DNA of 33,528 nt from a virus. Its lineage: Duplodnaviria > Caudoviricetes. How positions within the stretch are numbered: the stretch's first letter is position 1; the number at the start of each line of letters is the position of its first letter. The stretch lies in the IMG/VR virus record IMGVR_UViG_3300049141_000026, positions 1 to 33,528 of that record. One strand, 5' to 3'. A program made the position numbers and the translations under genes. Positions 5,664 to 33,528 of the stretch are shown in pieces. Below the pieces are notes generated by a model that was given only the letters and a program-made list of their open reading frames with translations, made no database searches and was not told where the DNA came from.

Positions 5664-5877
5664 CCGCGAGTGGTTCACGATCGAGAAGCCGAACGGCGCC
5701 TGGGTCGACAGCAAGGAGTACCCGAACAAGGAGGCTGCCGCGCAGGCAGCCAGGCTCCTTGCTCCGGAGTGCAACGAGCGCCTGACCGTCGTGAAGTACA
5801 CCCGCAAGGAGGTGCGCACCTTCACGCCGACGATCTCCATTACCGAGGCGGACGTAGGCACGGTCACCCCGGCATGA
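5653..5877 (+). CDS. hypothetical protein, last gene of the + operon
   Basis: AAGGAGG RBS, 74 aa. Confidence 0.7.
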   Translation: MAADREWFTIEKPNGAWVDSKEYPNKEAAAQAARLLAPECNERLTVVKYTRKEVRTFTPTISITEADVGTVTPA

Positions 5878-5990
5878 GAGAATGGCAGCTCCCTCTCCAT
5901 AGGGAAGCTGCTCCGTCCGGGCCGGCTGATCCCCGGCCCACCTCTCTCGGAGCACGCAGAAGCCCCCGGCCTTCGGGCCGGGGGCTTTTC
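5878..5990 (+). ncRNA. candidate 3'-UTR-derived antisense sRNA (two-loop)
   Basis: Hairpin 5885-5911 has loop CTCCAT and hairpin 5919-5939 has loop CTGATCC, followed by the terminator. The loops are complementary to those of the repeated early leaders. Confidence 0.45.
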
Positions 5991-5992
5991 TT
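5960..5992. terminator. rho-independent terminator between convergent operons (probably bidirectional)
   Basis: AAGCCCCCGGCC-TTCG-GGCCGGGGGCTT followed by TTCTT, with a C(UUCG)G tetraloop. Confidence 0.9.
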
Positions 5993-6037
5993 GCGTTTGC
6001 CCACCTTTCGGCGTGCTGCCTCGAACAGAGTAGCGAA

Positions 6038-17087: not shown

Positions 17088-17957
17088 TTACCCCGGGCTT
17101 CCGAAGACCAGGTTCTCCAGCGCGCCCTGGTAGGTGGTGACAGCCTGGTTGACCCCGTACTCCTTCTTGCCCTTGATCTGCTGCTCGCCGATCTGGGCAC
17201 GCCCCTCCGCGGTCATGCCGCCGGAGGACTGGGTGTCCTGGCTGACCTGCTGGCCGGTCTCCAGGTTGTACTGGGTGGTCGTGGTCTGCGTGACCGGGTT
17301 CGCTTCCTCGGCGGTGTGCAGCGCCGTGGCGAAGGCGGACAGCTCGCCCGCTCCCGGGTCGCGGCCCATCATGTCCTGGAAGAGCTTGGTGGCGATGGCG
17401 CGAGCCGTGGCCGGGTCGGTCAGGTCCGTGCGCGTGTCGGTCTGCTGGGCCATGCCGTTGCCCAGGTACACGCCGGGGCCGGCGTACCGCCGCTCGCCGG
17501 TCACCATGTTGACCTCAAAGGCGCCCTGCTGGCGCCAGGCATCCTTGCCGGCTCCGCCGGCCGCCTTGACGTAGCCGCTGAGCAGATCGAACGGGGTCAC
17601 CTTCTGGCCGACGGCGCCGAACTTACCGGCGGCCTCCACCAGCTTGCGCCAGCCCTCCTGGGCCTCGATGACGCCCGAGCCGACGGGCAGGAGCCCGCCC
17701 ACGATGAACTGCGCCAGGAGGTCCCGGCGCTTCTTGTCGTCCCAGCGGTAGAACTCCGCCATGGCTTCGTCGCTGGACAGCCACCTGTCCGACGTCGTGC
17801 GGACGTAGGCGTCCGCCGGACCGCTCTTCCGCTTCACCTTCTGCTGGCTGCCCATGTAGACGCGCCCCTCGGCGCCCGCTGACGAGCCGCCAGCGGACAG
17901 CAGGCCCTCCAGGGCCTTCACCATGCCGGGGTCCGGCCCCGCCGCACTGATGGCCAT
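17088..17957 (-). CDS. hypothetical internal virion protein
   Basis: 289 aa, translationally coupled within the structural operon. Confidence 0.65.
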   Translation of the reverse strand: MAISAAGPDPGMVKALEGLLSAGGSSAGAEGRVYMGSQQKVKRKSGPADAYVRTTSDRWLSSDEAMAEFYRWDDKKRRDLLAQFIVGGLLPVGSGVIEAQEGWRKLVEAAGKFGAVGQKVTPFDLLSGYVKAAGGAGKDAWRQQGAFEVNMVTGERRYAGPGVYLGNGMAQQTDTRTDLTDPATARAIATKLFQDMMGRDPGAGELSAFATALHTAEEANPVTQTTTTQYNLETGQQVSQDTQSSGGMTAEGRAQIGEQQIKGKKEYGVNQAVTTYQGALENLVFGSPG

Positions 17958-20900
17958 CAGGCCGCCTCCTCATCCAGAGCGTCGCCCAGCAGGTCGGCAA
18001 GCTCGTCCACGTCCACACTCAGGTCCCGGTGCAGGTACCGGCTGTGGAGGTCGCCGAAGCGGGTGTCCCGCTCGGTGAGGTCGTCCACGAACCTGACCCA
18101 ATTGTCCCGTAGATCCCGGTTCTTCTTGGCCGTGAGACTCTTTGCCGCGACGCCCTTGAGGCCGCGAGCCTTCAGGGCGGCGGAGCGCTCCTTGTAGCGG
18201 CGCTCAAGCTCCTTGACGACCACCTGTCGCCCGGCCAGGTAGAGCTGAAGTGTCCGGAGATCGGACCGATTGGGGTCCTTCGCCATGTCCGAGTGCGCCA
18301 CCTCGGTAAGAGCGGGGATCAGCCTCTCGTACTTCTTCGGGTCGAAGGAGTAGAAGTCCTTGGCCCATTCCTCGTTGTAGTACTCATTCTCTACATCGCC
18401 CGGCAACACGGGGGTGCTCATCAGCTCGGCAACGGCGTCCTTCATCCTCTTGAACTGCTCTGCACCGGGGTCGTCAAAGTGCTGGTACCCAGCGCTCTCC
18501 AGCTTGGACTTAATGAAATTCTGCATCTGCGTGTACTTCGCCCACCCGAGCCTCCGCTGGTTCTCCAGCATCGCCTCCTCGGCGGACAGCTTCGTCCGCT
18601 GCATCTCGCTGCCACCCGGCACGAGCGGGTGCGTGAGCTGGTACGTGTACGCCTCCGGCGAGAAGGGGCCATTGCCCTCCGGGCCGATGATGAGCGCGCC
18701 CAGCTCGGGGTTCTTCGCCAGCAGCTCCTCGTACCGCTTGGACAGCTCCACGGCCTGCTTCGTCGCCTCGGCGCCGATCTTGTTCTTGCTGGTGGCCTGG
18801 GCGAAGATGAAGTACGACTCCCCAAAGCGGTCCAGGAACTCCTGGTCAGCCGTCATGGGGTCCTTGCGGCGCAGGTTGTTGTACTGGTCCCGGTAGAAGG
18901 CGTACTTGTCGCTGCGCTGCGTCGCCGCCGGCTGGACGAACGCCCACGCCGCGCTCTGGAGCCAGTACTGCTTGGTCATGTCCGCGATCTCGCGGGCATC
19001 GGGCATCGGCTTGCCCAGGTTGGCGTGCTCGTAGGCGGCACGCTGCATGATCTGGAGCTTCGTGCGCTGGTAGCGCTCGTCGCTGGTGTCGTACGCGGTC
19101 AGGAAGTTCTTGATGGTCTGCGGCATCGACAAGTCGGCCGCGCGTCCCAGCGGCGTGTTGCCGAACAGGGGGCTCCCGGCCGTCGGGCCGTGGGGCAGGA
19201 CACCCAGGTGGCGAGCCAGCTCACCCATGCTCGGCTTGTCCTTGACGAACTCATTGACCGGGATACTGACAATCGGACCCGTGCCAGGGTTGAACCAGGG
19301 ATCGCCCTGCGTGATCATGTTCAGGCTGTCCTGGCTGACGAGCCAGCGGCCCGAGCCGTCCATGTTGAACGCCTTGCCCACCGGGCCGTCCACGACGAAC
19401 CGCGGCACGCGCGCCATGATCAGGCGCTTGCTCTTGGGTACGAAGGTCTTCTTGCCGGTGATGGGGTCGATCACCGTGCCGTCCCGCAGCACCTTGTTGC
19501 CGTCTTGGTCCTGCATCCAGCCCGCGGAGATCGGCGCGTTGAAAATGACGCCCGCGTACCCGACCGTCTGTGGCCGGTCGGCGATGATCCGGGCCCACCT
19601 CTGCCACGCCTCGGTAGTGGCGGCGAAGAACGGCGAGATGAAGCGGAGCGCATGCGCAGCGTCTGACCTGTGCGCGATGTCGAACACGAGCTTGCGCGTG
19701 TCCTTCAGCGCCAGGCGCCGGGCCGTCTCGGCGATCCGGTCCGCTTCCGCCTGGGTGACCTTGGCGCCCTGCTTGATCTCCTGAGACGCCAGGATCTTGG
19801 CGTGCCCCTCGTAGAGCTGGTTGAACAGCGGGTGCCTGGACATCCGGTCCGCCGGGATGGAGGCGGCCGTCCTGTACCACCAGTCGATGACGCGGTCCAC
19901 GCCCTGAGTCAAAGGGCCGCCCAGGCCCTCGGCGAGCTGGGTGGTGTGCACGTTCAGCGGGTGATGCCCGAGCTTGGCTGCCTCCGCAAGGAAGGTCTCA
20001 TCGGCCTTGCCTTCCAGCGCCGCCATGCGGATCTCCGGCGTGGGCAGGTACTCGTCCACCTCGTGCCACACGGAGGCGGCGATCCGCTCGGCAGGTGAGT
20101 GCTTGATACCCAGGCGCTTCCGGTACGCCCGGCCCGCGGGCGTCTTGGTGAGCCAGTCGCTCATCTCGCCGATGGACTTGCCCTGTACCGCCAGGCGACC
20201 CAGCTCGTCCTGCATGATCTGAAGGTTGATCGCCTGGTCCCAGGAGCTGACGAACTTCTTCGGGTCCTGGGGGTAGGAGATCGCCACGCCCTGCTTGCCG
20301 TAGGCGCGCTGGAGGTTGCCGTGGACGATCTGCTTGTTGCGTGACAGGAGCGTGCGCAGCGAGTCGTCGCTGCTGATCATCTTCTGGTAGTACTCGCCGC
20401 GGTTGCCGGCGAACGCGGCGGGCACCACCGTGCCCGGCGCCACCTCGATCTCCTTGTAGACCTGCGAATTCTGCCGATGGCCCCGCTTGAGCGCGGTCTT
20501 CAGCCCGGCGATCTCGGCAACGGCGCCAGCCCGCTGGCCGGCGAGGTTCGCCAGCTGGTCGTCCATGTCCGCCAGGCGGGCCTGCGGACGGGCCATGCGG
20601 GTCTGCATCCGCTGCTCTGCGCGGGCGACCTCGCCCGCGTGCTTCTCCACGAGCTGCTGGTGAGCGCGGATCTGCGCAGGGGTGGCCGCGGGGGGCAGGG
20701 CATTGAGCCGGTTCGTCGCCCGGCGGTGCCGGTCACGAGCGCGCCGCACGGCGTCCTTGTGGATCATCTCCCGCGTCTCCACCTTGACACGGAAAAGGTC
20801 GGCCTTGGGCTGAAGAACCTTCAGCTCGTCATCGATGTACTTCAGGCCCTCCTTGGCTGCGGCCTCCTGGGCCTCATAGAAGGAGGCCGGCTTCCACCGG

Positions 20901-22918
20901 GCCAGGTTGGTAGCGAGGTTCTTAACGCCATAGTTGGCGCGCAGCACCATGGTTGCCGCCCCAAGCCGAGCGACCTGGCCGGCGAGGTCATCGCCCAGCA
21001 CTCGGGGGATGTAGCCCAGGCGAAAGAGCGTGCCGAACTTCCACAGGTGGTTGAGGTAGTCGGCGGAGTTGACCAGCCAGTCCTTGTTGCCGATGCTCGC
21101 CGTGCGCAGCGCCTTGAGGGCGCTGCCGTGGCGGGCGAGCGTGGTGTCCAGCGCCTTCAGGTCCACCATGACGTGGTCGTTGACCAGGCGAGTCACCAGG
21201 TTGGGGTGCACCGACAGGTTGCCGTGCCCGTCAACGAACTCGTCCAGGTGGATCTTCTCGCCGTGCGGGCCGCGGGCGTCCGGGTGCACGCCAGCTGAGT
21301 ACCGGCGCAGCTTGTCCTGGCCGCCCAGGATCTGCGCCTGGTACTCGCGGTACAGGGCCATGCCCTCGTCGTAGGTGAGGCCGTGTTTCTCCGCGACCTT
21401 GCCCACGCCCATGCCTTGGACCTTCTCCAGCATCACCAGGCGCTCCGCCTCGGTGGTGGTCTTGAGGTAGTCGTTCAGCATGCTCTGGCGGATGTCCGGG
21501 CCGATGCCCGGGATGCGGGCGATCTGCGCCCGCAGCTCGTCCACCGCCTCCTGGTGGATGTCGTCCACCGCGATCAGGCCGTTGGGGTGCGCCTCCTTGA
21601 AGGAGCGCACAACCACCAGGTTGTTGCCGAAGAAGTCGTTGCCGTAGATCCGCGCCTTGCCCAGGCGCGACTGCGGGGAGCCGGAGGTCCCGAGGGCCGG
21701 GCCAGTGCGGTGCTGCGCCTGCGCGTCCGTACGCCGCTGCGCGCGGTCGAATGACCATCGCGTGAGGTTGACCGCGTCCAGCTCCTGATAGTGGGCAAGC
21801 ATCCCGTCGTACTGCGCCACCAGGTTTTCATCGGCGTTGATCTGCTGGTTGAGCTGCTTGATGCGGTCGCGCACCAGCGCCTCGGCTCGCGTGTTGCCCT
21901 GCGCGACCACGCGCGGCAGCGCCAGCTCCGCCTTCGAAAGGCGCGAGGTGTCCTGCTGAAGACGCTGGGCGGCAAGCGCATTGCGCTGCTCCAGGAGCAC
22001 GCGGGCCTCCACGTCCCCGAGCCCGACACGGAGGAAAAGGTCCACTTCCTCGCGGCTCTTGAGCGTGGAGACGATGCCCCCGGCCCGGGGGCCCAGGGCT
22101 GACTTGCGGAACATCGACAGGTTGTTGATCAGGGCCGGGTTGTCCTTGTTGGCCCAGATGAAGTCCTGGGCCTTGCCCATGGTCGAGTCCGCCATGATGG
22201 ACTCGATGTCGTCCTTGCCCCAGCCGCCCTTGGGGCGCTCCTTGACGATGAACTTGTTGCGGGCGGCGCCCACGCCCTTGCCCCCGAGTACGAACGGGTC
22301 GAGGTACCACCGGAAGACGAAGTCCCCGGCGCCGCTGGCGAAGGTGAACCAGGCGTGATCCTGCCGCATCTGCTCCACGGCGCGGTTGCCGACGGCCGGC
22401 ATGCCCTTGGACTTCAGCCACTCCTGCTGCTCGTCCGGCGCCATGTCCTTCCACTCGGGCGGCAGGTAGGAGGCGGCGGGCTGGGCGTACACCAGCTCGT
22501 TCTCCAGGATCTCGTCCGCCTCCTTGCCCGTGGCAAACATCGCCTGGCCCGGAGAGACGTGCTCGGCGGTACGCCACGCCTGGGCCCAGGTGCTGCCCTT
22601 GAACACGTCGCTCCACGCCTCGCCCGCATCGTCGTCGTTCCGCGGTGACACCAGGAAGAACGTGCTGATCGGCTGACTGATGGCGTTGTCATAGATCCAG
22701 TTCATGCCGTGCATGACCTGCTCAAGCGAGTTGGTCACCGGCTTCATGGCCGGAGCCAGCAGGCCGTCCTTGCTGGCGTCGTGGACCGGCTTCCAGTTGC
22801 CGTCCTTGTCCTTCTCGTGCCTGATGTCCTCGTAGAAGGGATTGATCACCCGCTCCACCGAGCGCATGGCGTTGCCCGCGGAGTAGACCGCGTCCTCCAG
22901 CCAGTCGCCGATGCCCAC
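17957..22918 (-). CDS. very large internal virion/ejectosome-type protein
   Basis: 1653-aa helical ORF in the portal-to-scaffold block. Size and position resemble podovirus ejection proteins; no catalytic motif was recognised. Confidence 0.6.
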   Translation of the reverse strand: MGIGDWLEDAVYSAGNAMRSVERVINPFYEDIRHEKDKDGNWKPVHDASKDGLLAPAMKPVTNSLEQVMHGMNWIYDNAISQPISTFFLVSPRNDDDAGEAWSDVFKGSTWAQAWRTAEHVSPGQAMFATGKEADEILENELVYAQPAASYLPPEWKDMAPDEQQEWLKSKGMPAVGNRAVEQMRQDHAWFTFASGAGDFVFRWYLDPFVLGGKGVGAARNKFIVKERPKGGWGKDDIESIMADSTMGKAQDFIWANKDNPALINNLSMFRKSALGPRAGGIVSTLKSREEVDLFLRVGLGDVEARVLLEQRNALAAQRLQQDTSRLSKAELALPRVVAQGNTRAEALVRDRIKQLNQQINADENLVAQYDGMLAHYQELDAVNLTRWSFDRAQRRTDAQAQHRTGPALGTSGSPQSRLGKARIYGNDFFGNNLVVVRSFKEAHPNGLIAVDDIHQEAVDELRAQIARIPGIGPDIRQSMLNDYLKTTTEAERLVMLEKVQGMGVGKVAEKHGLTYDEGMALYREYQAQILGGQDKLRRYSAGVHPDARGPHGEKIHLDEFVDGHGNLSVHPNLVTRLVNDHVMVDLKALDTTLARHGSALKALRTASIGNKDWLVNSADYLNHLWKFGTLFRLGYIPRVLGDDLAGQVARLGAATMVLRANYGVKNLATNLARWKPASFYEAQEAAAKEGLKYIDDELKVLQPKADLFRVKVETREMIHKDAVRRARDRHRRATNRLNALPPAATPAQIRAHQQLVEKHAGEVARAEQRMQTRMARPQARLADMDDQLANLAGQRAGAVAEIAGLKTALKRGHRQNSQVYKEIEVAPGTVVPAAFAGNRGEYYQKMISSDDSLRTLLSRNKQIVHGNLQRAYGKQGVAISYPQDPKKFVSSWDQAINLQIMQDELGRLAVQGKSIGEMSDWLTKTPAGRAYRKRLGIKHSPAERIAASVWHEVDEYLPTPEIRMAALEGKADETFLAEAAKLGHHPLNVHTTQLAEGLGGPLTQGVDRVIDWWYRTAASIPADRMSRHPLFNQLYEGHAKILASQEIKQGAKVTQAEADRIAETARRLALKDTRKLVFDIAHRSDAAHALRFISPFFAATTEAWQRWARIIADRPQTVGYAGVIFNAPISAGWMQDQDGNKVLRDGTVIDPITGKKTFVPKSKRLIMARVPRFVVDGPVGKAFNMDGSGRWLVSQDSLNMITQGDPWFNPGTGPIVSIPVNEFVKDKPSMGELARHLGVLPHGPTAGSPLFGNTPLGRAADLSMPQTIKNFLTAYDTSDERYQRTKLQIMQRAAYEHANLGKPMPDAREIADMTKQYWLQSAAWAFVQPAATQRSDKYAFYRDQYNNLRRKDPMTADQEFLDRFGESYFIFAQATSKNKIGAEATKQAVELSKRYEELLAKNPELGALIIGPEGNGPFSPEAYTYQLTHPLVPGGSEMQRTKLSAEEAMLENQRRLGWAKYTQMQNFIKSKLESAGYQHFDDPGAEQFKRMKDAVAELMSTPVLPGDVENEYYNEEWAKDFYSFDPKKYERLIPALTEVAHSDMAKDPNRSDLRTLQLYLAGRQVVVKELERRYKERSAALKARGLKGVAAKSLTAKKNRDLRDNWVRFVDDLTERDTRFGDLHSRYLHRDLSVDVDELADLLGDALDEEAA

Positions 22919-28971: not shown

Positions 28972-29019
28972 ACCCGTCTCCCGCGTCCCTGGGGGCCCTT
29001 CTGGGGGCCCGGCAGGGGC

Positions 29020-29048
29020 GGAAGGTACATCCGTGGGAATGCTTGTCC
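29020..29048 (-). promoter_or_regulatory. putative late promoter, degenerate copy at the head of the late operon
   Basis: The minus strand reads GGAC-N14-ATGTACCTTCC, with the same spacing as the other two copies. Confidence 0.45.
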
Positions 29049-29149
29049 TAGCAGGCCCTCAAATGCCCTGGTTTGAGCGGCGCATGAAAGTGTGTAGGAA
29101 CACACAAAAGCGACACGCCGGGAAAATTTGACTTTGGGGTATTTTCATC

Positions 29150-30030
29150 AGCTAAGCTCGACCCAGCGAAGCTCGACCGGAGGGAAAAAGCCCCTCCGCT
29201 CTCGCCAGCAGCGGACGAAGTCCGCAGCAACGCTCCAGCTCAGCGCAGGCCCGGCCCCCAAGCCGGGCCTTCTGCATGCTCGGGCCCATAAAGGGCCCAG
29301 GGAGAGCCGGCTGAGACCGGCTCAGCATGCTGGGGGGTTTAGCTGAGATCGATGGTTGGACACCATCGATCGAGCGAGGCCCCCGGGTTTAACACCCGGG
29401 GGTCAAAGCAGGCACAAGCAGGGCAAAGCATCAGCAGAGGCAGCAAAGCAGCGGCCTCCGGCCGCAGCAGGGGGCCTCGCTCGATCGAGCGAGGCGGACA
29501 GTCCCACCCCAGGCATGGGGTGCTCCTGTCCCAGCACAGCCGCACCTTCGGTGCATAGAGCAAGCACGAGCTGTGCGCCTTCGGCGCACTGCTGCGGGGA
29601 GCAGAGCACGCGTGCCCATGGGGCACGCAGCAGGGCGTGTGCTGCGTGGCTGTACGCCACGCTGCTGGGTGCAGCAGGCTCGTGCCGGACCGGGAGTCCG
29701 GGCACTCACCGGCCGCCCCTGTACGGGCCGTCAGGCGTCGTACGTGCCCCGGCCGATGGCCGGGAGCAGAGCACGCCCACGCATGCACGTGCCCGCGCAT
29801 ACGCGCGCGCGCGAGGCCGGCGAGCCCATGCTCGCCCCGGCAACCCCTTCCGCCCAGGACGTCCCTTGGGGACGTCACATGCGCACCAGGTGTCACAACG
29901 TGCCCAGTGCACGTTGTTAGCGACCGTCAGGCATATGCCTGGTGCCATGGTCCGGACCTGCGGTTACCCCGGGTACGGCGCAGTTGTGGTCATGGCGTGA
30001 CGACGAGTGGTCCACACCACGTGCACGAGT
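29150..30030. repeat. dense array of short inverted repeats and GCA-rich short repeats (non-coding; possible genome-end/origin region)
   Basis: Many hairpins, e.g. GCGGAC-GAA-GTCCGC, the 22-bp palindrome at 29474-29495, GTGCGCC-TTC-GGCGCAC and GACGTCCC-TTG-GGGACGTC. No credible ORF. Confidence 0.65.
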
Positions 30031-30166
30031 GGAAGGATCTTTCATCACAACCACGATCTTGGTCGCTTCAACCCTCAACAGACAATCGTTCGAGCTAAGG
30101 CAACCCTCATCAGTGCAGGTCAAGCCGGGTACGAAAAAAAACTTCGAGAATGTTTCCCTGAACCCC

Positions 30167-30196
30167 TTGACCACGATCGTGGTCAGAGCGCAGTCT
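30167..30196 (+). promoter_or_regulatory. host sigma70/HrdB-type early promoter overlapped by an 18-bp palindrome
   Basis: TTGACC-N18-CAGTCT, an upstream A-tract, and TGACCACGATCGTGGTCA at 30168-30185. Confidence 0.55.
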
Positions 30197-30609
30197 TGGA
30201 CCACGCCGCAAGGGAGCACCGGAAACGGGAGCAACCGGGCGGAGTCGAGGAATCTGAACGTGCCCGCCTTCACGGGTTGTTCACAGACCTCACAACCGCA
30301 GAGCATGGCCCCGTTGGACCAGCAGCCGCTGACAAGTCACGGGCAGGGCGCCAGGACATGGCGCGGAGCATCAGGCGCGGCTTTCAGTCGCAGACAAGCT
30401 CCGTGGGCACAGGTGGCGTTCCGTAGGGACTCAGAGCCCTACGGACGATGACGGGCAGTCTGTTGCCCGTCACTCGTCATGCGGGCAGGGGTGCAACCCC
30501 ATTCGCTCGGGATGAGCTGGACGCATGCTCGGTATCCCTGCCCGCTTGATGAGTAACCATCATGATCATTGCCGGTTGTGCCGGCACACCAGGAGAGGGG
30601 TATTTGATC

Positions 30610-30819
30610 ATGGACGTACAGCAGCACACCGAGGATGGCACCACGTACACCGTGGGACAGCGCGTCCAGCGCGTGGACTGGGAGAACGACGGCACGCCCG
30701 CCTATCAGGGCACGCTGGAGCGCATCGAGTTGGACGCGGGGGAGGCGTACTACTGGATTCGCTGGGACGGCACGCCCGCCGCAGACCATCACGGGCCGTA
30801 CGCGTTCCGGATCATCTGA
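30610..30819 (+). CDS. small beta-barrel (SH3-like) hypothetical protein
   Basis: RBS GGAGAGG; YTVGQRV...GTL...YYWIRWD pattern. Confidence 0.7.
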   Translation: MDVQQHTEDGTTYTVGQRVQRVDWENDGTPAYQGTLERIELDAGEAYYWIRWDGTPAADHHGPYAFRII

Positions 30820-30937
30820 GCCTGTAAGAGCCATCGAGCACCCGGACATGTGCCGGGTGCTCCCTTGGTTCCGCAGTCCAGCGGGACACGCCCGACCGAT
30901 CATCGGGCGTCCGATCGGCCTTGGAGAGGGACTGATC
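30820..30937 (+). promoter_or_regulatory. repeated structured intergenic leader, copy A
   Basis: Long stem with hairpin GAGCACCCGG/CCGGGTGCTC, hairpin CGCCCGA-CCGATCA-TCGGGCG, and an SD hairpin containing TTGGAGAGGG. Confidence 0.7.
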
Positions 30938-31420
30938 ATGATGCAGTTCGAGAGTGATGACACGGCAATTCTGCGTGTGCTGAACGCGCTAAGCGAGGGC
31001 GAGATCATCGACCACGGTACGGCGCGTGCCATTGCGTCGCAGTACAACGAGCCGGGCGTCTGCGAGTCGTTCGTGTCGACCGGCGCCATCCCGTCCGGCG
31101 AGGAGGGGGACAGCTCCACCCTGATCTACGCCCTCTTTGAGGGCACGGCGGAACACCCGGACTACGGGCTTCGCGCGGCGCGCGCCCTGGAAGAGTACAT
31201 CGAAGATCGCTTCGAGGCCGGCGACTGCGCACCCGTGCCCGGGTGGTCGGGCATGTGGGTCACGAAGCACGTGGACTACCCGCACGAGCCGGGGCGCCTG
31301 TATGACTGCTTGGCATGCGAAGCGGAGTGCTTCTGCAACCCGGGCGTCGGCTGGTCGCCGGATCTCAATGTCACGCCGTGCGTGTACTGCGCTGAGCAGA
31401 TGGACGCATTCGAATCCTGA
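30938..31420 (+). CDS. hypothetical acidic protein with C-terminal H-x-DYPH...C-xx-C...C-x-C...C-xx-C motif
   Basis: ATG 30938 follows leader A. Confidence 0.7.
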   Translation: MMQFESDDTAILRVLNALSEGEIIDHGTARAIASQYNEPGVCESFVSTGAIPSGEEGDSSTLIYALFEGTAEHPDYGLRAARALEEYIEDRFEAGDCAPVPGWSGMWVTKHVDYPHEPGRLYDCLACEAECFCNPGVGWSPDLNVTPCVYCAEQMDAFES

Positions 31421-31529
31421 TTTATCCGCCAGAGCATCGGGCGCATCCCCAACGGGGTGCGCCCCCTTGCTCTTACGGATGAGAGCACCGGCACTGATCA
31501 TGCCGGCAGATCTCTTGGAGAGGGAGATC
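31421..31529 (+). promoter_or_regulatory. repeated structured intergenic leader, copy B
   Basis: ATCCG..AGAGCA/TGCTCT..CGGAT stem, CCGGCA-CTGATCA-TGCCGG, and GATCTCTT-GGAGA-GGGAGATC-ATG. Confidence 0.75.
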
Positions 31530-32042
31530 ATGAACAGCAGCGACAACGAGCGCACGGGCGTCACGCGCGGATTCACCACGGACGCCAATGGCAACCACGA
31601 CCGCACTCCGGTGCTCGTGATTGACGGCACGGGCGAGCGCTACCGGCTGGTGCCGTTCGCGGGCCCCGTGATCGATTCGGGCTACGTGCTCGCCCAGAAC
31701 GCCCACACGGGCGTCAAGGTTCGTGAGCGGTACCAGACGGGCACCGACAACGGCGAGCACATCGCGTGGCGTGTGGATGGCTACGAGTGGCGGGGGTTCA
31801 AGGGGTACATGGTCCGTACCGAGGACCGGGGGCACGGCATCGTTGCCGTTTATGTCAAGGGCCCGGCCAGTGACATCAAGGGCATCGAGCGGGCCAGCCG
31901 CGCTTACGCCAAGACCCTGACGTTCGCGCCGGGCATGAAGCCCGGTGCGGTGGGTGGAGGCGGCGAGTTCACCGACGCGGGCGCCACGTACATCAGCCAG
32001 GACGTCCACCTGACGAAGCCGCTGCCCAAGCGCGAGGACTGA
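31530..32042 (+). CDS. hypothetical protein (MNSSDNERTG...)
   Basis: ATG 31530 follows leader B; 170 aa. Confidence 0.7.
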   Translation: MNSSDNERTGVTRGFTTDANGNHDRTPVLVIDGTGERYRLVPFAGPVIDSGYVLAQNAHTGVKVRERYQTGTDNGEHIAWRVDGYEWRGFKGYMVRTEDRGHGIVAVYVKGPASDIKGIERASRAYAKTLTFAPGMKPGAVGGGGEFTDAGATYISQDVHLTKPLPKRED

Positions 32043-32159
32043 CGCATCCGCCGGAGTGCCGGGCCGACTCACCGCGGTGAGTCGTGCCCGTGCTCTTACG
32101 GATGAGAGCACCCCGGGATTGATCCCCCGGGGCCTGATCTTCATGGAGAGGGAAGATCA
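32043..32159 (+). promoter_or_regulatory. repeated structured intergenic leader, copy C
   Basis: Shares TGCTCTTACGGATGAGAGCACC with copy B; CCCCGGG-ATTGATCC-CCCGGGG; TGATCTTC-ATGGAGAGG-GAAGATCA. Confidence 0.75.
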
Positions 32160-32423
32160 ATGAGCATCGAGACCACCAGCACCGCCGTAGCCGGTACGGA
32201 ATGGACGGTACGCAACCGGTACGAGACCACGGACGGCGACCGCGTTGCCCTGCTGTATCTGTACGGCCCGGAGGTGGACCGCTTCGCCGTGTCCTACTCC
32301 TACGCATGGCCGCACTCGCCCCAGTTCATCGAGTACGCGGAGCGCGTGGACGCGATCACCGCCTTCGTCCGGAGCCTCAACTACGCCGACCGTCGCGGCG
32401 TCGTGGCACACCGGGAGGGCTGA
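32160..32423 (+). CDS. hypothetical protein
   Basis: 87 aa after leader C. Confidence 0.7.
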   Translation: MSIETTSTAVAGTEWTVRNRYETTDGDRVALLYLYGPEVDRFAVSYSYAWPHSPQFIEYAERVDAITAFVRSLNYADRRGVVAHREG

Positions 32424-32426
32424 ACC

Positions 32427-32591
32427 ATGGGCTTCCTGATCACGCTCCTGGTGCTCCTGGCCGGCGCCGCACCGCAGTGCGTCGAGGAGGACGGCTCCAC
32501 GCAGAGCGTGTGCGTGTGGAGCGACGGCACGGGCGACACCGTGCTGAACATCGACAACGGCGCCTACTGGTTCACGCTGGGAGGTGAGTGA
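32427..32591 (+). CDS. small secreted/membrane protein (MGFLITLLVLLAGAAPQCVEEDGS...CVW), not in the ORF track
   Basis: GGAGG RBS, hydrophobic N-terminus, PxCxxED...CxW motif, 54 aa. Confidence 0.65.
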   Translation: MGFLITLLVLLAGAAPQCVEEDGSTQSVCVWSDGTGDTVLNIDNGAYWFTLGGE

Positions 32592-32824
32592 GCATGGCAT
32601 ACCGAGTTGTTCGTACCTTGCCTGACGGCACGGTCAAGACCAGCCCGACCACGGTGAAGACTAAGCGGCTCGCCGCGATCTTCGCGGGCGTTTCCCTGCA
32701 TGACAACACCGGGGCATCCAAGGTGGAAGCGCAGCGCTTCTCCATCGAGCTGGCAGCTCTACCGCTTGGAACCGACCTTACCCACGCGAGCGGGTACCGC
32801 TTCCGCGTGGAGAGCATCGACTGA
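32588..32824 (+). CDS. hypothetical protein
   Basis: GGAGG RBS; start is GTG 32588 or ATG 32594. Confidence 0.65.
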   Translation: MSMAYRVVRTLPDGTVKTSPTTVKTKRLAAIFAGVSLHDNTGASKVEAQRFSIELAALPLGTDLTHASGYRFRVESID

Positions 32825-32953
32825 CCCTGTCGGCCCAAGCCGAGCGCATCCCGTCCACCCCCGGGGTGCGCTCCCTTGGTCTTGCAGATCAGGACCACAC
32901 CGCCGACTGATCATCGGCGGCGCAGCAACTGCCTTTGGAGAGGGGCAGCAGTC
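32825..32953 (+). promoter_or_regulatory. repeated structured intergenic leader, copy D
   Basis: GAGCGCATCCCG/CGGGGTGCGCTC hairpin, CCGCCGA-CTGATCA-TCGGCGG, and CTGCCTT-TGGAGA-GGGGCAG. Confidence 0.75.
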
Positions 32954-33409
32954 ATGCAGCACATCATCGGACGTGTCTGGTACGGCACGGGACAGTACGC
33001 ACAGCGCACCCTGAGCCCGGGTGAGTGGGCCACGGAGATGCTGATCAGCCGGCAGGGCGGTGAGACGTCGTACCGGTGGACCGGAGAGGACCGGAACGGC
33101 GCGCGCCTGCACGTCGTGTGGATCACCGACCCCAAGGACATTGCGACGCTCATCGCGTTCGAGTTGTCGCTGGAGCCGACCGCCACCAACACCCAAGAGC
33201 GCCTGGAGCGCGAGTTGCTTCGACTCGACAGGGAGTACGAGCGTGCCATGGGGCACAACGCGTTCCTGTACGCCGACCGCGGCAAGGACATGGGCCCCGG
33301 CGCGTACCACTTCACGGAGGGCCGCGTCATGGTCGGCGTGCGCAACGCCCTGGTGCACATGAAGACCCTCATGCACGACCTGGCCACCGAGCTGGAAGGG
33401 AGCAAGTGA
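32954..33409 (+). CDS. hypothetical protein (MQHIIGRVWYG...)
   Basis: ATG 32954 follows leader D; 151 aa. Confidence 0.7.
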   Translation: MQHIIGRVWYGTGQYAQRTLSPGEWATEMLISRQGGETSYRWTGEDRNGARLHVVWITDPKDIATLIAFELSLEPTATNTQERLERELLRLDREYERAMGHNAFLYADRGKDMGPGAYHFTEGRVMVGVRNALVHMKTLMHDLATELEGSK

Positions 33410-33522
33410 CCATGTGCAAGTGCGGAGCGCAGACGTACGAGGCACACCTGAAGCGGTGCGCCGACGGCTACCCGGCTCACGTATACCGGGGGACCATCTG
33501 GCTGCCCCCGAGCAAGAGTTAA
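33406..33522 (+). CDS. small Cys/His protein (MTMCKCGAQTYEAHLKRC...)
   Basis: GTGA coupling, GGAAGGGAG RBS, 38 aa. Confidence 0.5.
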   Translation: MTMCKCGAQTYEAHLKRCADGYPAHVYRGTIWLPPSKS

Positions 33523-33528
33523 CCCAAG

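What the first reader, a model, noticed from the sequence alone, without database searches (positions are those of the whole stretch)
30820..32953. Four covarying ~110-130 nt structured intergenic elements punctuate the early genes
Seen: copies at 30820-30937, 31421-31529, 32043-32159 and 32825-32953 each fill the gap from a TGA to the next ATG. They share one architecture: a long interrupted stem capped by a GC hairpin, a hairpin with a (C/T)GATC(A/C) loop, and a hairpin containing TGGAGAGGG that ends at or near the ATG. Stem sequences differ but pairing is kept (CGCCCGA/TCGGGCG, CCGGCA/TGCCGG, CCCCGGG/CCCGGGG, CCGCCGA/TCGGCGG), and G-U pairs in the long stem and SD hairpin point to function as + strand RNA. 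Copies B and C share 22 identical nt. Inference: this is an unannotated cis-regulatory RNA family, possibly processing sites like the T7 early RNase III sites combined with translational control.
Basis: partly seen in the sequence, partly recalled or inferred. Interest (0 to 1): 0.85.

Follow-up and report, generated by a model that had tools for sequence, protein, structure and literature searches.

The report
Switchable RNA cassettes between phage genes
Between the small early genes of this soil Streptomyces phage and at least 18 relatives sits a conserved RNA cassette, absent from Rfam, that likely marks where the host's RNase III cuts the long early message and is predicted to refold into a protective cap, and it carries a hairpin loop whose letters are shared within each phage but differ between phages.

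Summary
The four elements are real, at the stated coordinates. They belong to a family: 57 strong copies in 19 phage loci, clustered in the early arm of BF-related Streptomyces phages, with no Rfam match. Each copy runs: stop codon, long stem P1 (10–12-bp cap, 2×3 internal loop, 12-nt lower arm), P3 hairpin, a hairpin with the SD core GGAG in its loop, AUG. Covariation is strong.

(1) A covarying alternative hairpin, P2, excludes the lower P1 stem and is predicted to form once P1's 5' strand is cut off or covered. (2) The P3 loop is a genome-specific signature (36 of 42 within-genome pairs agree; 7.3 expected), whereas P1 subtypes do not follow the genome. (3) Genes are swapped between the cassettes.

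Best reading (0.55): T7/SP82-like RNase III cut-and-protect sites. P1 geometry fits, and its core weakly resembles the host 23S rRNA processing stem. No cleavage is shown and no RNA data were found. Rivals: weak terminator, ribosome-coupled switch, site for a phage factor. This scan noted analogous hairpin families in other Streptomyces phages, with no sequence look-alike.

The parts
30167..30196 (+). Predicted host-type early promoter (TTGACC, 18 nt, CAGTCT) with a palindromic operator-like spacer; likely start of the early transcript
   Evidence: TTGAC invariant in 9 aligned loci; located; the E. coli-consensus scan finds 0 promoters here. Inferred.
30472..30612 (+). Related leader element E0: 8-bp lower stem, 1x1 mismatch, upper stem of 10 bp or more in most copies; followed by an SD-in-loop hairpin before the first gene
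   Evidence: z -5.2; stem found in 14 of 20 loci examined
30610..30819 (+). Early ORF 1, 69 aa, no PHROG or Pfam family
30817..30940 (+). Cassette A: P1 30821-30877 (cap 30836-30862; internal loop 30834-35/30863-65), alternative P2 30868-30887, P3 30888-30910, SD hairpin 30913-30937
   Evidence: (77 bits)
30938..31420 (+). Early ORF 2, 160 aa, no family
31418..31532 (+). Cassette B: P1 31425-31479 (cap 31439-31464; internal loop 31437-38/31465-67), alternative P2 31468-31487, P3 31488-31506, SD hairpin 31509-31529
   Evidence: (96.5 bits)
31530..32042 (+). Early ORF 3, 170 aa, no family; replaced by unrelated DNA in two related soil contigs
32040..32162 (+). Cassette C: P1 32047-32102 (cap 32061-32087), alternative P2 32091-32110, P3 32111-32132, SD hairpin 32135-32159
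   Evidence: (74 bits)
32160..32824 (+). Three tightly packed early ORFs (87, 54, 76 aa) with no cassette between them
32822..32956 (+). Cassette D: P1 32826-32888 (cap 32842-32873; weak lower stem), P2 32877-32897 (favoured here), P3 about 32900-32920, SD hairpin about 32930-32949
   Evidence: (72 bits); compensatory A32906G/T32914C in a related contig
32954..33409 (+). Early ORF, 151 aa, no family

Best explanation
The elements are a covarying family of intercistronic RNA cassettes that likely act as cut-and-protect signals on one long early transcript: host RNase III would cut the long stem P1 at its 2x3 internal loop, and the downstream piece is predicted to refold at once into hairpin P2 at its new 5' end. 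Steps: (1) a single host-type promoter near 30167 likely drives the early operon (inferred from conservation); (2) behind each stop codon P1 forms, with about 11 nt of helix on each side of the internal loop (pairing shown by covariation; fold in vivo predicted); (3) RNase III would cut at the loop on one or both sides (untested; the conserved A-U pair four steps below the loop fits a cut on the 5' side by E. coli rules); (4) P2, and in a single 3'-side cut the P1 cap, would shield the new ends from RNase J and PNPase, giving stable gene-sized messages (inferred); (5) ribosomes would load on the GGAG loop of the last hairpin; (6) P3 likely presents a phage-specific loop to a factor that I could not identify. 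As a by-product the repeated cassettes are the boundaries at which early genes are exchanged (seen in related contigs).
For: Covariation of P1 on a plain MAFFT alignment of 36 copies: 91.5% of 720 cells paired vs 75.3+-1.0 shuffled and 35-51% slid; 15 of 20 pairs with double changes. Held-out copies: 382 of 420 cells paired; among 28 disjoint sister pairs, 56 of 61 double changes keep pairing (alignment fitted to the model). Geometry: cap 10-12 bp in 52 of 57 copies, internal loop 2x3 in 48 of 57, U-U at the top of the lower stem in 43 of 57, whereas P3 stems span 6-26 bp. Lower arm: C-G and G-C pairs in 57 of 57, A-U at the fourth step in 39 of 57. RNase III needs about 11 bp from the cut to the distal box (22 bp in all), and loops restrict it to one strand and leave protective 3' hairpins (PMC3867540, PMC1540722, passages). 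S. coelicolor RNase III prefers G-C duplexes and cuts either side of a 4/4 internal loop in rpsO-pnp; RNase J is present (PMC10126417, section and passages). The host 23S rRNA processing stem holds GAGCA/UGCUC plus a U-U mismatch like the phage core (5' strand pattern in 39 of 61 Streptomyces genomes; PWM p 0.013-0.018, post hoc). P2 covaries with its own partner: mean -8.3 kcal/mol vs -5.4+-0.3 with partners swapped; it dominates in 51 of 57 copies after a cut at the loop. Copies precede 36 protein families (55 ORFs), so they are not gene-specific sensors.
Against: No cleavage or transcript data: no RNA run is listed. Mapped double cuts in B. subtilis are over 90% paired next to the cut (PMC11780869, passages), unlike a 2x3 loop. 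The upper stem is G-C at the position that would be proximal-box 2 for a 3'-side cut, an antideterminant for the E. coli enzyme. The host resemblance is modest: exact GAGCAUC in only 7 of 57 copies, the rpsO-pnp hairpin does not match the phage PWM (-2.4 bits), and I found no mapped cut site for the Streptomyces 23S stem. In copy D and 4 other copies P2 wins even in the uncut RNA; P1b dominates in 46 of 57. The model was built with 10 cap pairs, so copies with short caps could have been missed. 27 of 57 caps are followed by 5 or more T in 8 nt, as in weak terminators. The cut-and-protect model does not explain the genome-specific P3 loop.
Confidence: 0.55

Rival explanations
1. Weak intrinsic terminators or attenuators: the G-C-rich P1 cap followed by a pyrimidine run stops part of the polymerases at each gap and grades early expression; P2, P3 and the SD hairpin serve the read-through message.
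For: The terminator scan flags the caps of B and D; 27 of 57 caps have 5 or more T in an 8-nt window behind them; the lower 5' arm pairs with that run as upstream tracts do in many terminators (own knowledge). T4-type PeSL cassettes are terminators that also mediate gene shuffling (PMC2839356, PMC4122927, abstracts).
Against: Two terminator-like hits equal the chance level (1.9+-1.6). The bases right behind the cap are CCU or UGU, not U's. No copy holds the phage's early-promoter pattern (0 of 57), so up to five efficient terminators in series would starve downstream genes. A terminator does not need an invariant 3-bp helix 10-12 nt below the loop or a fixed 2x3 loop.
Confidence: 0.17
2. A ribosome-coupled switch without, or gating, cleavage: a ribosome ending at the upstream stop codon covers the 5' arm of P1, P2 forms instead, and this decides whether the RNA is cut, degraded or handed on for translation.
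For: The upstream stop codon lies 0-5 nt before P1 in 53 of 57 copies. Masking that arm flips the predicted fold from P1b (46 of 57) to P2 (48 of 57). The outer P1b pair is G-U in 31 of 57 copies while the same U meets an A in P2, as if tuned to flip.
Against: Compact genomes also put elements next to stop codons. The flip does not change predicted SD access, so no output is evident other than hiding the P1 stem. Compatible with the best explanation as an added layer.
Confidence: 0.13
3. Binding platforms for a phage-encoded RNA-binding protein (antiterminator, translational activator or repressor, or stabiliser) that reads the P3 loop, in the way lambdoid N proteins read phage-specific boxB loops (recalled); P1 is secondary.
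For: P3 loop class agrees in 36 of 42 within-genome pairs (7.3 expected; maximum 19 in 10,000 permutations), while three P1 features do not cluster by genome (p 0.46, 0.13, 0.91). Classes are scattered on the terminase tree, and the sister phages L012 and L013 differ. The same motif appears in the P1 or E0 loop of some copies, including two that lack P3.
Against: No protein family tracks loop class across distant genomes (20 partial or whole genomes, low power). Loop classes were defined after seeing the data. About 9 of 57 copies lack P3. Gene conversion limited to P3 could also homogenise loops. No CsrA homologue in 5 records.
Confidence: 0.1
4. DNA-level elements: repressor operators, or repeats kept mainly as recombination sites for gene shuffling.
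For: Relatives carry a serine recombinase, so repressors are expected. Genes are replaced between conserved cassettes in close relatives, and 27 of 29 cross-genome pairs that share a downstream gene family differ in the upstream one.
Against: G-U pairs outnumber A-C by 95 to 26; stems vary while pairing is kept. UGGCA and UGCCA are reverse complements yet each genome keeps mostly one of them on the sense strand. The palindrome in the early promoter does not follow the P3 class.
Confidence: 0.05

Closest known systems
RNase III processing sites of phage T7 early mRNA (R0.3-R1.3; R1.1 as model substrate) and of Bacillus phage SP82 early mRNA
   Same: Long intercistronic stems with an asymmetric internal loop about one helical turn from the apex, punctuating a host-transcribed early operon at the genome end. 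T7 transcripts mostly carry RNase III sites (PMC3867540, passages); SP82 early sites are cited in PMC4838370 (passage and reference title). The names of the five T7 early sites are recalled.
   Different: No sequence link shown; G-C-rich; a covarying alternative hairpin P2 overlaps the lower stem; a third hairpin has a genome-specific loop; the SD core sits in a hairpin loop; no cleavage shown.
Streptomyces host RNase III substrates: rpsO-pnp intergenic hairpin and the 23S rRNA leader-trailer stem
   Same: pnp hairpin: internal loop between arms of similar length, cut on both sides of the loop (PMC10126417). 23S stem: same GAGCA/UGCUC plus U-U core.
   Different: The pnp loop is 4/4 and its sequence does not match the phage PWM; cleavage there destabilises the message. 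The 23S stem is a long-range, nearly perfect duplex, and its cut site in Streptomyces was not found in the papers I read.
PeSL cassettes of T4-type phages (RB49, phi1)
   Same: Repeated intergenic regulatory cassettes in a variable early region that are the points of gene exchange (abstracts of PMC2839356, PMC4122927).
   Different: PeSLs are a terminator plus a sigma70-like promoter; no promoter pattern lies in these cassettes (0 of 57).
Intergenic hairpins of cluster BF isolates (WRightOn, Immanuel3)
   Same: Related phage group (terminase about 70% nt); early gaps also hold interrupted stems, many with caps of about 10-12 bp.
   Different: Different motif and an unstructured SD; the model finds 0 matches in both genomes. 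Not described as RNA elements in the one BF announcement I searched (PMC9753666, passages).
Lambdoid nut sites (boxA-boxB) next to the RNase III site of the N leader (recalled)
   Same: A phage-specific hairpin loop beside an RNase III-type stem, upstream of a ribosome-binding site.
   Different: Many copies per genome between genes; no N-like protein found; the pyrimidine strand covaries with its pairing partners rather than holding a fixed boxA sequence.

Membership tests
Phage early-mRNA RNase III processing sites (T7/SP82 type) | Intercistronic position on the sense strand of an early polycistronic region | tested here: met
   Stop codon 0-5 nt before P1 in 53 of 57 copies; strong copies cluster in one early stretch in the records scanned whole; sense-strand G-U bias
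Phage early-mRNA RNase III processing sites (T7/SP82 type) | [quoted passage not shown] | tested here: met
   Cap 10-12 bp in 52 of 57; lower arm 12-13 nt with a 2x2 mismatch; criterion from PMC3867540
Phage early-mRNA RNase III processing sites (T7/SP82 type) | A-U or U-A at proximal-box position 2 | tested here: inconclusive
   A-U/U-A in 39 of 57 for a 5'-side cut; mostly G-C for a 3'-side cut; the cut site is unknown and the rule comes from E. coli and Aquifex enzymes
Phage early-mRNA RNase III processing sites (T7/SP82 type) | RNase III-dependent cleavage in vivo or in vitro | not testable with these tools
   No RNA holder listed
Intrinsic terminators | G-C-rich hairpin directly followed by a U-run | tested here: inconclusive
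   27 of 57 have 5 or more T in 8 nt, but the run is interrupted and starts with CCU or UGU; window hits at chance level
PeSL cassettes | Promoter within the cassette | tested here: not met
   0 of 57 hold the phage early-promoter pattern; 0 sigma70-type hits in 29000-33528. A promoter of another type is not excluded.
PeSL cassettes | Gene exchange between repeated cassettes | tested here: met
Any Rfam family (riboswitches, ribozymes, leaders) | Covariance-model match | tested here: not met
   0 gathering hits in the window and in 9 related loci; no E<=5 hit on the four elements
nut-type antitermination sites | Cognate phage protein that reads the loop | tested here: inconclusive
   No covarying protein found in 20 partial or whole genomes
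CsrA/RsmA target sites | GGA loops plus a CsrA protein | tested here: inconclusive
   GGA sits in the P2 and SD loops, but 0 of 5 phage records encode CsrA; host genomes were not searched for it

The most novel reading that the evidence does not exclude
Each cassette is a two-input RNA switch. Translation of the upstream gene flips P1 to P2 and so gates RNase III processing, while the P3 loop is a phage-specific barcode read by a phage-encoded RNA factor. This would give these temperate phages an RNA-level self/non-self code that changes in all copies at once between sister phages, and lets any gene dropped between two cassettes be licensed for expression.
Probability: 0.2. Interest if true: 0.85.

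Novelty: new variant of a known kind. Interest (0 to 1): 0.62.

Why it matters
Nothing in the searches I ran describes processing signals in Streptomyces phage early mRNA. This family supplies dozens of natural variants of one likely Streptomyces RNase III substrate, an enzyme that controls antibiotic production but has few mapped sites, so its rules become testable. The built-in P1/P2 alternative would be a compact way to cap a freshly cut message against RNase J and could serve as a part for gene-by-gene expression control. The genome-specific P3 loop points to an unidentified recognition factor. The cassettes also mark where the phage swaps accessory genes.

Tried and rejected
Exact 22-nt B/C pattern in IMG/VR: 0 hits. 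A pattern joining the P3 loop to the SD: 4 hits, none scoring with the model. Element pattern in GTDB genomes: 35 stretches, of which only 2 (Streptomyces sp. t39 contigs with phage genes) score with the model. Isolated phages in GenBank: no copy of element B; the model finds none in WRightOn or Immanuel3. Model search of 101 Streptomyces genomes: 6 with a match; 2 are unrelated perfect palindromes, 4 are true copies, and the 3 contexts checked hold homologues of this phage group's proteins, so no host-chromosome family was found in those searched. No RNA holder listed. Search for a protein that tracks the P3 loop class: none found. P3 as the repressor operator of the early promoter: rejected, the promoter palindrome does not follow loop class. 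A complementary loop in the leader as a trans partner: not seen by eye in the 7 leaders recovered of 20 loci. rpsO-pnp hairpin: same relative placement of a CCG triplet and a U-A pair by eye but no PWM match. A 16S-leader PWM hit (8.2 bits) could not be placed in the processing stem. The measure 'at least 4 nt of P1b paired in P2' barely beat controls (51 of 57 vs 72-76%); only the energy test separates them. P2 covariation on the MAFFT alignment is weaker than P1's (score 0.221 vs 0.170; 2 of 500). Attempt to locate the crossover by asking whether P1 travels with the upstream gene and the SD hairpin with the downstream gene: no clear signal. Ribozyme: no Rfam match and no conserved single-stranded core. 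Literature: searches gave no paper on this family; the phiC31 early-region terminator papers (recalled) were not found. In Fremin et al. 2023 (PMC10690425) I saw passages and four supplementary files with no hit; two zip files and three larger files could not be read, so the family may be among their 8,495 unnamed IMG/VR candidates.
Full report
Setting. The window is the whole 33.5-kb record (73% complete). Its terminase matches cluster BF/Beephvirinae Streptomyces phages at about 70% nucleotide identity; capsid, portal, terminase and tail families lie on the - strand. After a non-coding stretch come small + strand ORFs with no family. A promoter-like site at 30167-30196 is conserved in 9 aligned loci, so this is likely the early arm. 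Relatives carry a serine recombinase and several are proviruses, so the group is probably temperate.

Observation. All four gaps, stems, loops and the 22-nt B/C identity are as described. They fold far better than shuffles (z -3.4 to -5.6) and match nothing in Rfam.

The family. Eighty terminase-linked IMG/VR loci were fetched. A profile of the four copies gave further copies, and 36 were aligned. A covariance model built from them was run on 56 of the sources then held: 112 matches at E<=0.1, of which I analysed the 57 sense-strand matches of 40 bits or more, in 19 loci; 36 of the 57 built the model. Fifteen of 15 records scanned whole have a match, and the strong ones sit in one early stretch of each. 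Two BF isolates have none, although their early gaps hold other interrupted stems. Copies also occur in Streptomyces assemblies next to homologues of this group's proteins. Nine related loci have no Rfam hit.

Anatomy. Each copy begins at a stop codon (0-5 nt before the stem in 53 of 57). On the unfitted alignment 91.5% of cells pair, against 75.3% shuffled and 35-51% slid, with double changes at 15 of 20 pairs. Among 28 disjoint sister pairs, 56 of 61 double changes keep pairing, whereas 30 of 56 single changes break it. G-U outnumbers A-C 95 to 26, which fixes the + strand RNA. These controls do not fully remove relatedness, but the copies come from paralogous positions in many genomes.

The alternative fold. 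The 3' strand of the lower stem has a second partner just downstream, forming P2. P2 is -8.3 kcal/mol on average with its own partner and -5.4+-0.3 with partners swapped among copies; column-wise support is weaker. In partition-function folds at 30 C, the lower P1 stem dominates in 46 of 57 whole copies; P2 dominates in 48 of 57 when the 5' arm is masked and in 51 of 57 after a cut at the loop. In the window, P2 would start 0-2 nt from the 3' edge of the loop. Copy D prefers P2 even uncut.

The SD hairpin. The GGAG core is unpaired in the loop in 54 of 57 copies, before and after a cut, mostly 9-11 nt from the AUG; the region pairs with the host anti-SD at about -9 kcal/mol. The stem (about -10 kcal/mol) holds the spacer. 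This argues against simple on/off SD sequestration.

The P3 loop. P3 was called in 46 of 57 copies (two more were missed by the parser; about nine lack it). Stems vary (6-26 bp), but the loop falls into classes (YGAUY, UGAUG, UGGCA, UGCCA, CGGCA; defined after seeing the data) that agree in 36 of 42 within-genome pairs against 7.3 expected. P1 subtypes do not cluster by genome (p 0.13-0.91), so this is not whole-element homogenisation. On the terminase tree the classes are scattered, and sister phages L012 and L013 differ (the L012 class rests on 3 hairpin-loop UGCCA against 1 UGGCA). The motif also appears in P1 or E0 loops of some copies. A recognition factor is the simplest cause, but I found no protein that tracks the class, and the window lacks part of the early/middle arm.

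Why RNase III. The enzyme needs about 11 bp from the cut to the distal box, and internal loops limit it to one strand and leave protective hairpins (PMC3867540, PMC1540722; passages). The Streptomyces enzyme prefers G-C duplexes and cuts beside an internal loop in rpsO-pnp, and the host has RNase J (PMC10126417; section 7 part 1 and passages). The host 23S rRNA processing stem carries GAGCA/UGCUC with a U-U mismatch in the three genomes where I paired both strands; its 5' strand pattern is in 39 of 61 Streptomyces genomes. The PWM match has p about 0.015, is post hoc and is one of three host comparisons, so it is weak support. Against: well-mapped double cuts in B. subtilis are mostly paired at the cut (PMC11780869, passages), the cap is G-C where E. 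coli rules want A-U for a 3'-side cut, and there are no RNA data.

Gene exchange. In two related soil contigs the cassettes are kept while the DNA between them is replaced (joints 31516/32038, 31531/32038, 32159/32420, 32600/32821), and D's P3 shows a compensatory double change. Across the family 55 downstream ORFs fall into 36 families, and 27 of 29 cross-genome pairs sharing a downstream family differ upstream. This parallels T4-type PeSLs (abstracts), but no promoter pattern lies in the cassettes.

Verdict. A real, uncatalogued RNA family that most likely works like T7/SP82 early RNase III sites (0.55); membership is not proven because cleavage is untested. It differs from them in the covarying alternative cap, the genome-specific loop and the SD-in-loop hairpin. 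The scan has noted analogous intercistronic hairpin families in other Streptomyces phages (unchecked notes), with no sequence look-alike of this one. Absence from print rests and on an incomplete view of the supplements of PMC10690425.

Noticed in passing
window 30204-30610: A 400-nt non-coding early leader packed with hairpins (z about -4.5 to -5.2). Relatives have 400-600+ nt leaders built from shared modules in different combinations; a 170-nt module is replaced in a close relative. Possibly several small RNAs.
   Followed up: partly
window 30049-30062 and 30170-30183: Two copies of a near-palindromic 14-mer, one in the spacer of the predicted early promoter; similar palindromes in relatives. 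Likely repressor operators.
   Followed up: partly
window 30472-30554: E0 stem with a fixed 8-bp base and an insert of up to about 180 nt in its apex in some relatives; found in 14 of 20 loci. Possibly a second type of processing site.
   Followed up: partly
window 29150-29500: Strongly folding, conserved non-coding stretch between the terminase start and the early promoter (tile z down to -8.5; blastn hits in many loci); may include the genome-end or packaging region.
   Followed up: no
window 5870-6000: Convergent gap between the + strand middle genes and the - strand late genes with several hairpins, one holding TGGAGAGGG on the - strand; weak model hit of 20 bits. Probably terminators.
   Followed up: no
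L001 and L178 (WRightOn, Immanuel3 early gaps): A different family of interrupted stems with caps of about 10-12 bp, often flanked by GGUU/UUCC, before an unstructured SD. These are cultured phages, so the processing idea can be tested there.
   Followed up: partly
L001 13471-15222, - strand: The WRightOn early leader holds two copies of CTTGAGAACTC, which also occurs in the Streptomyces 16S rRNA leader; possible mimicry of an rrn antitermination or processing signal.
   Followed up: no
L136 10513-12573 and relatives: Large serine recombinase, WhiB-like factor and small HTH proteins in the arm missing from the window: a probably temperate sister group of cluster BF.
   Followed up: partly
window 17957-22918, - strand: 1653-aa virion-region protein with no Pfam family and only an unknown-function PHROG.
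   Followed up: no
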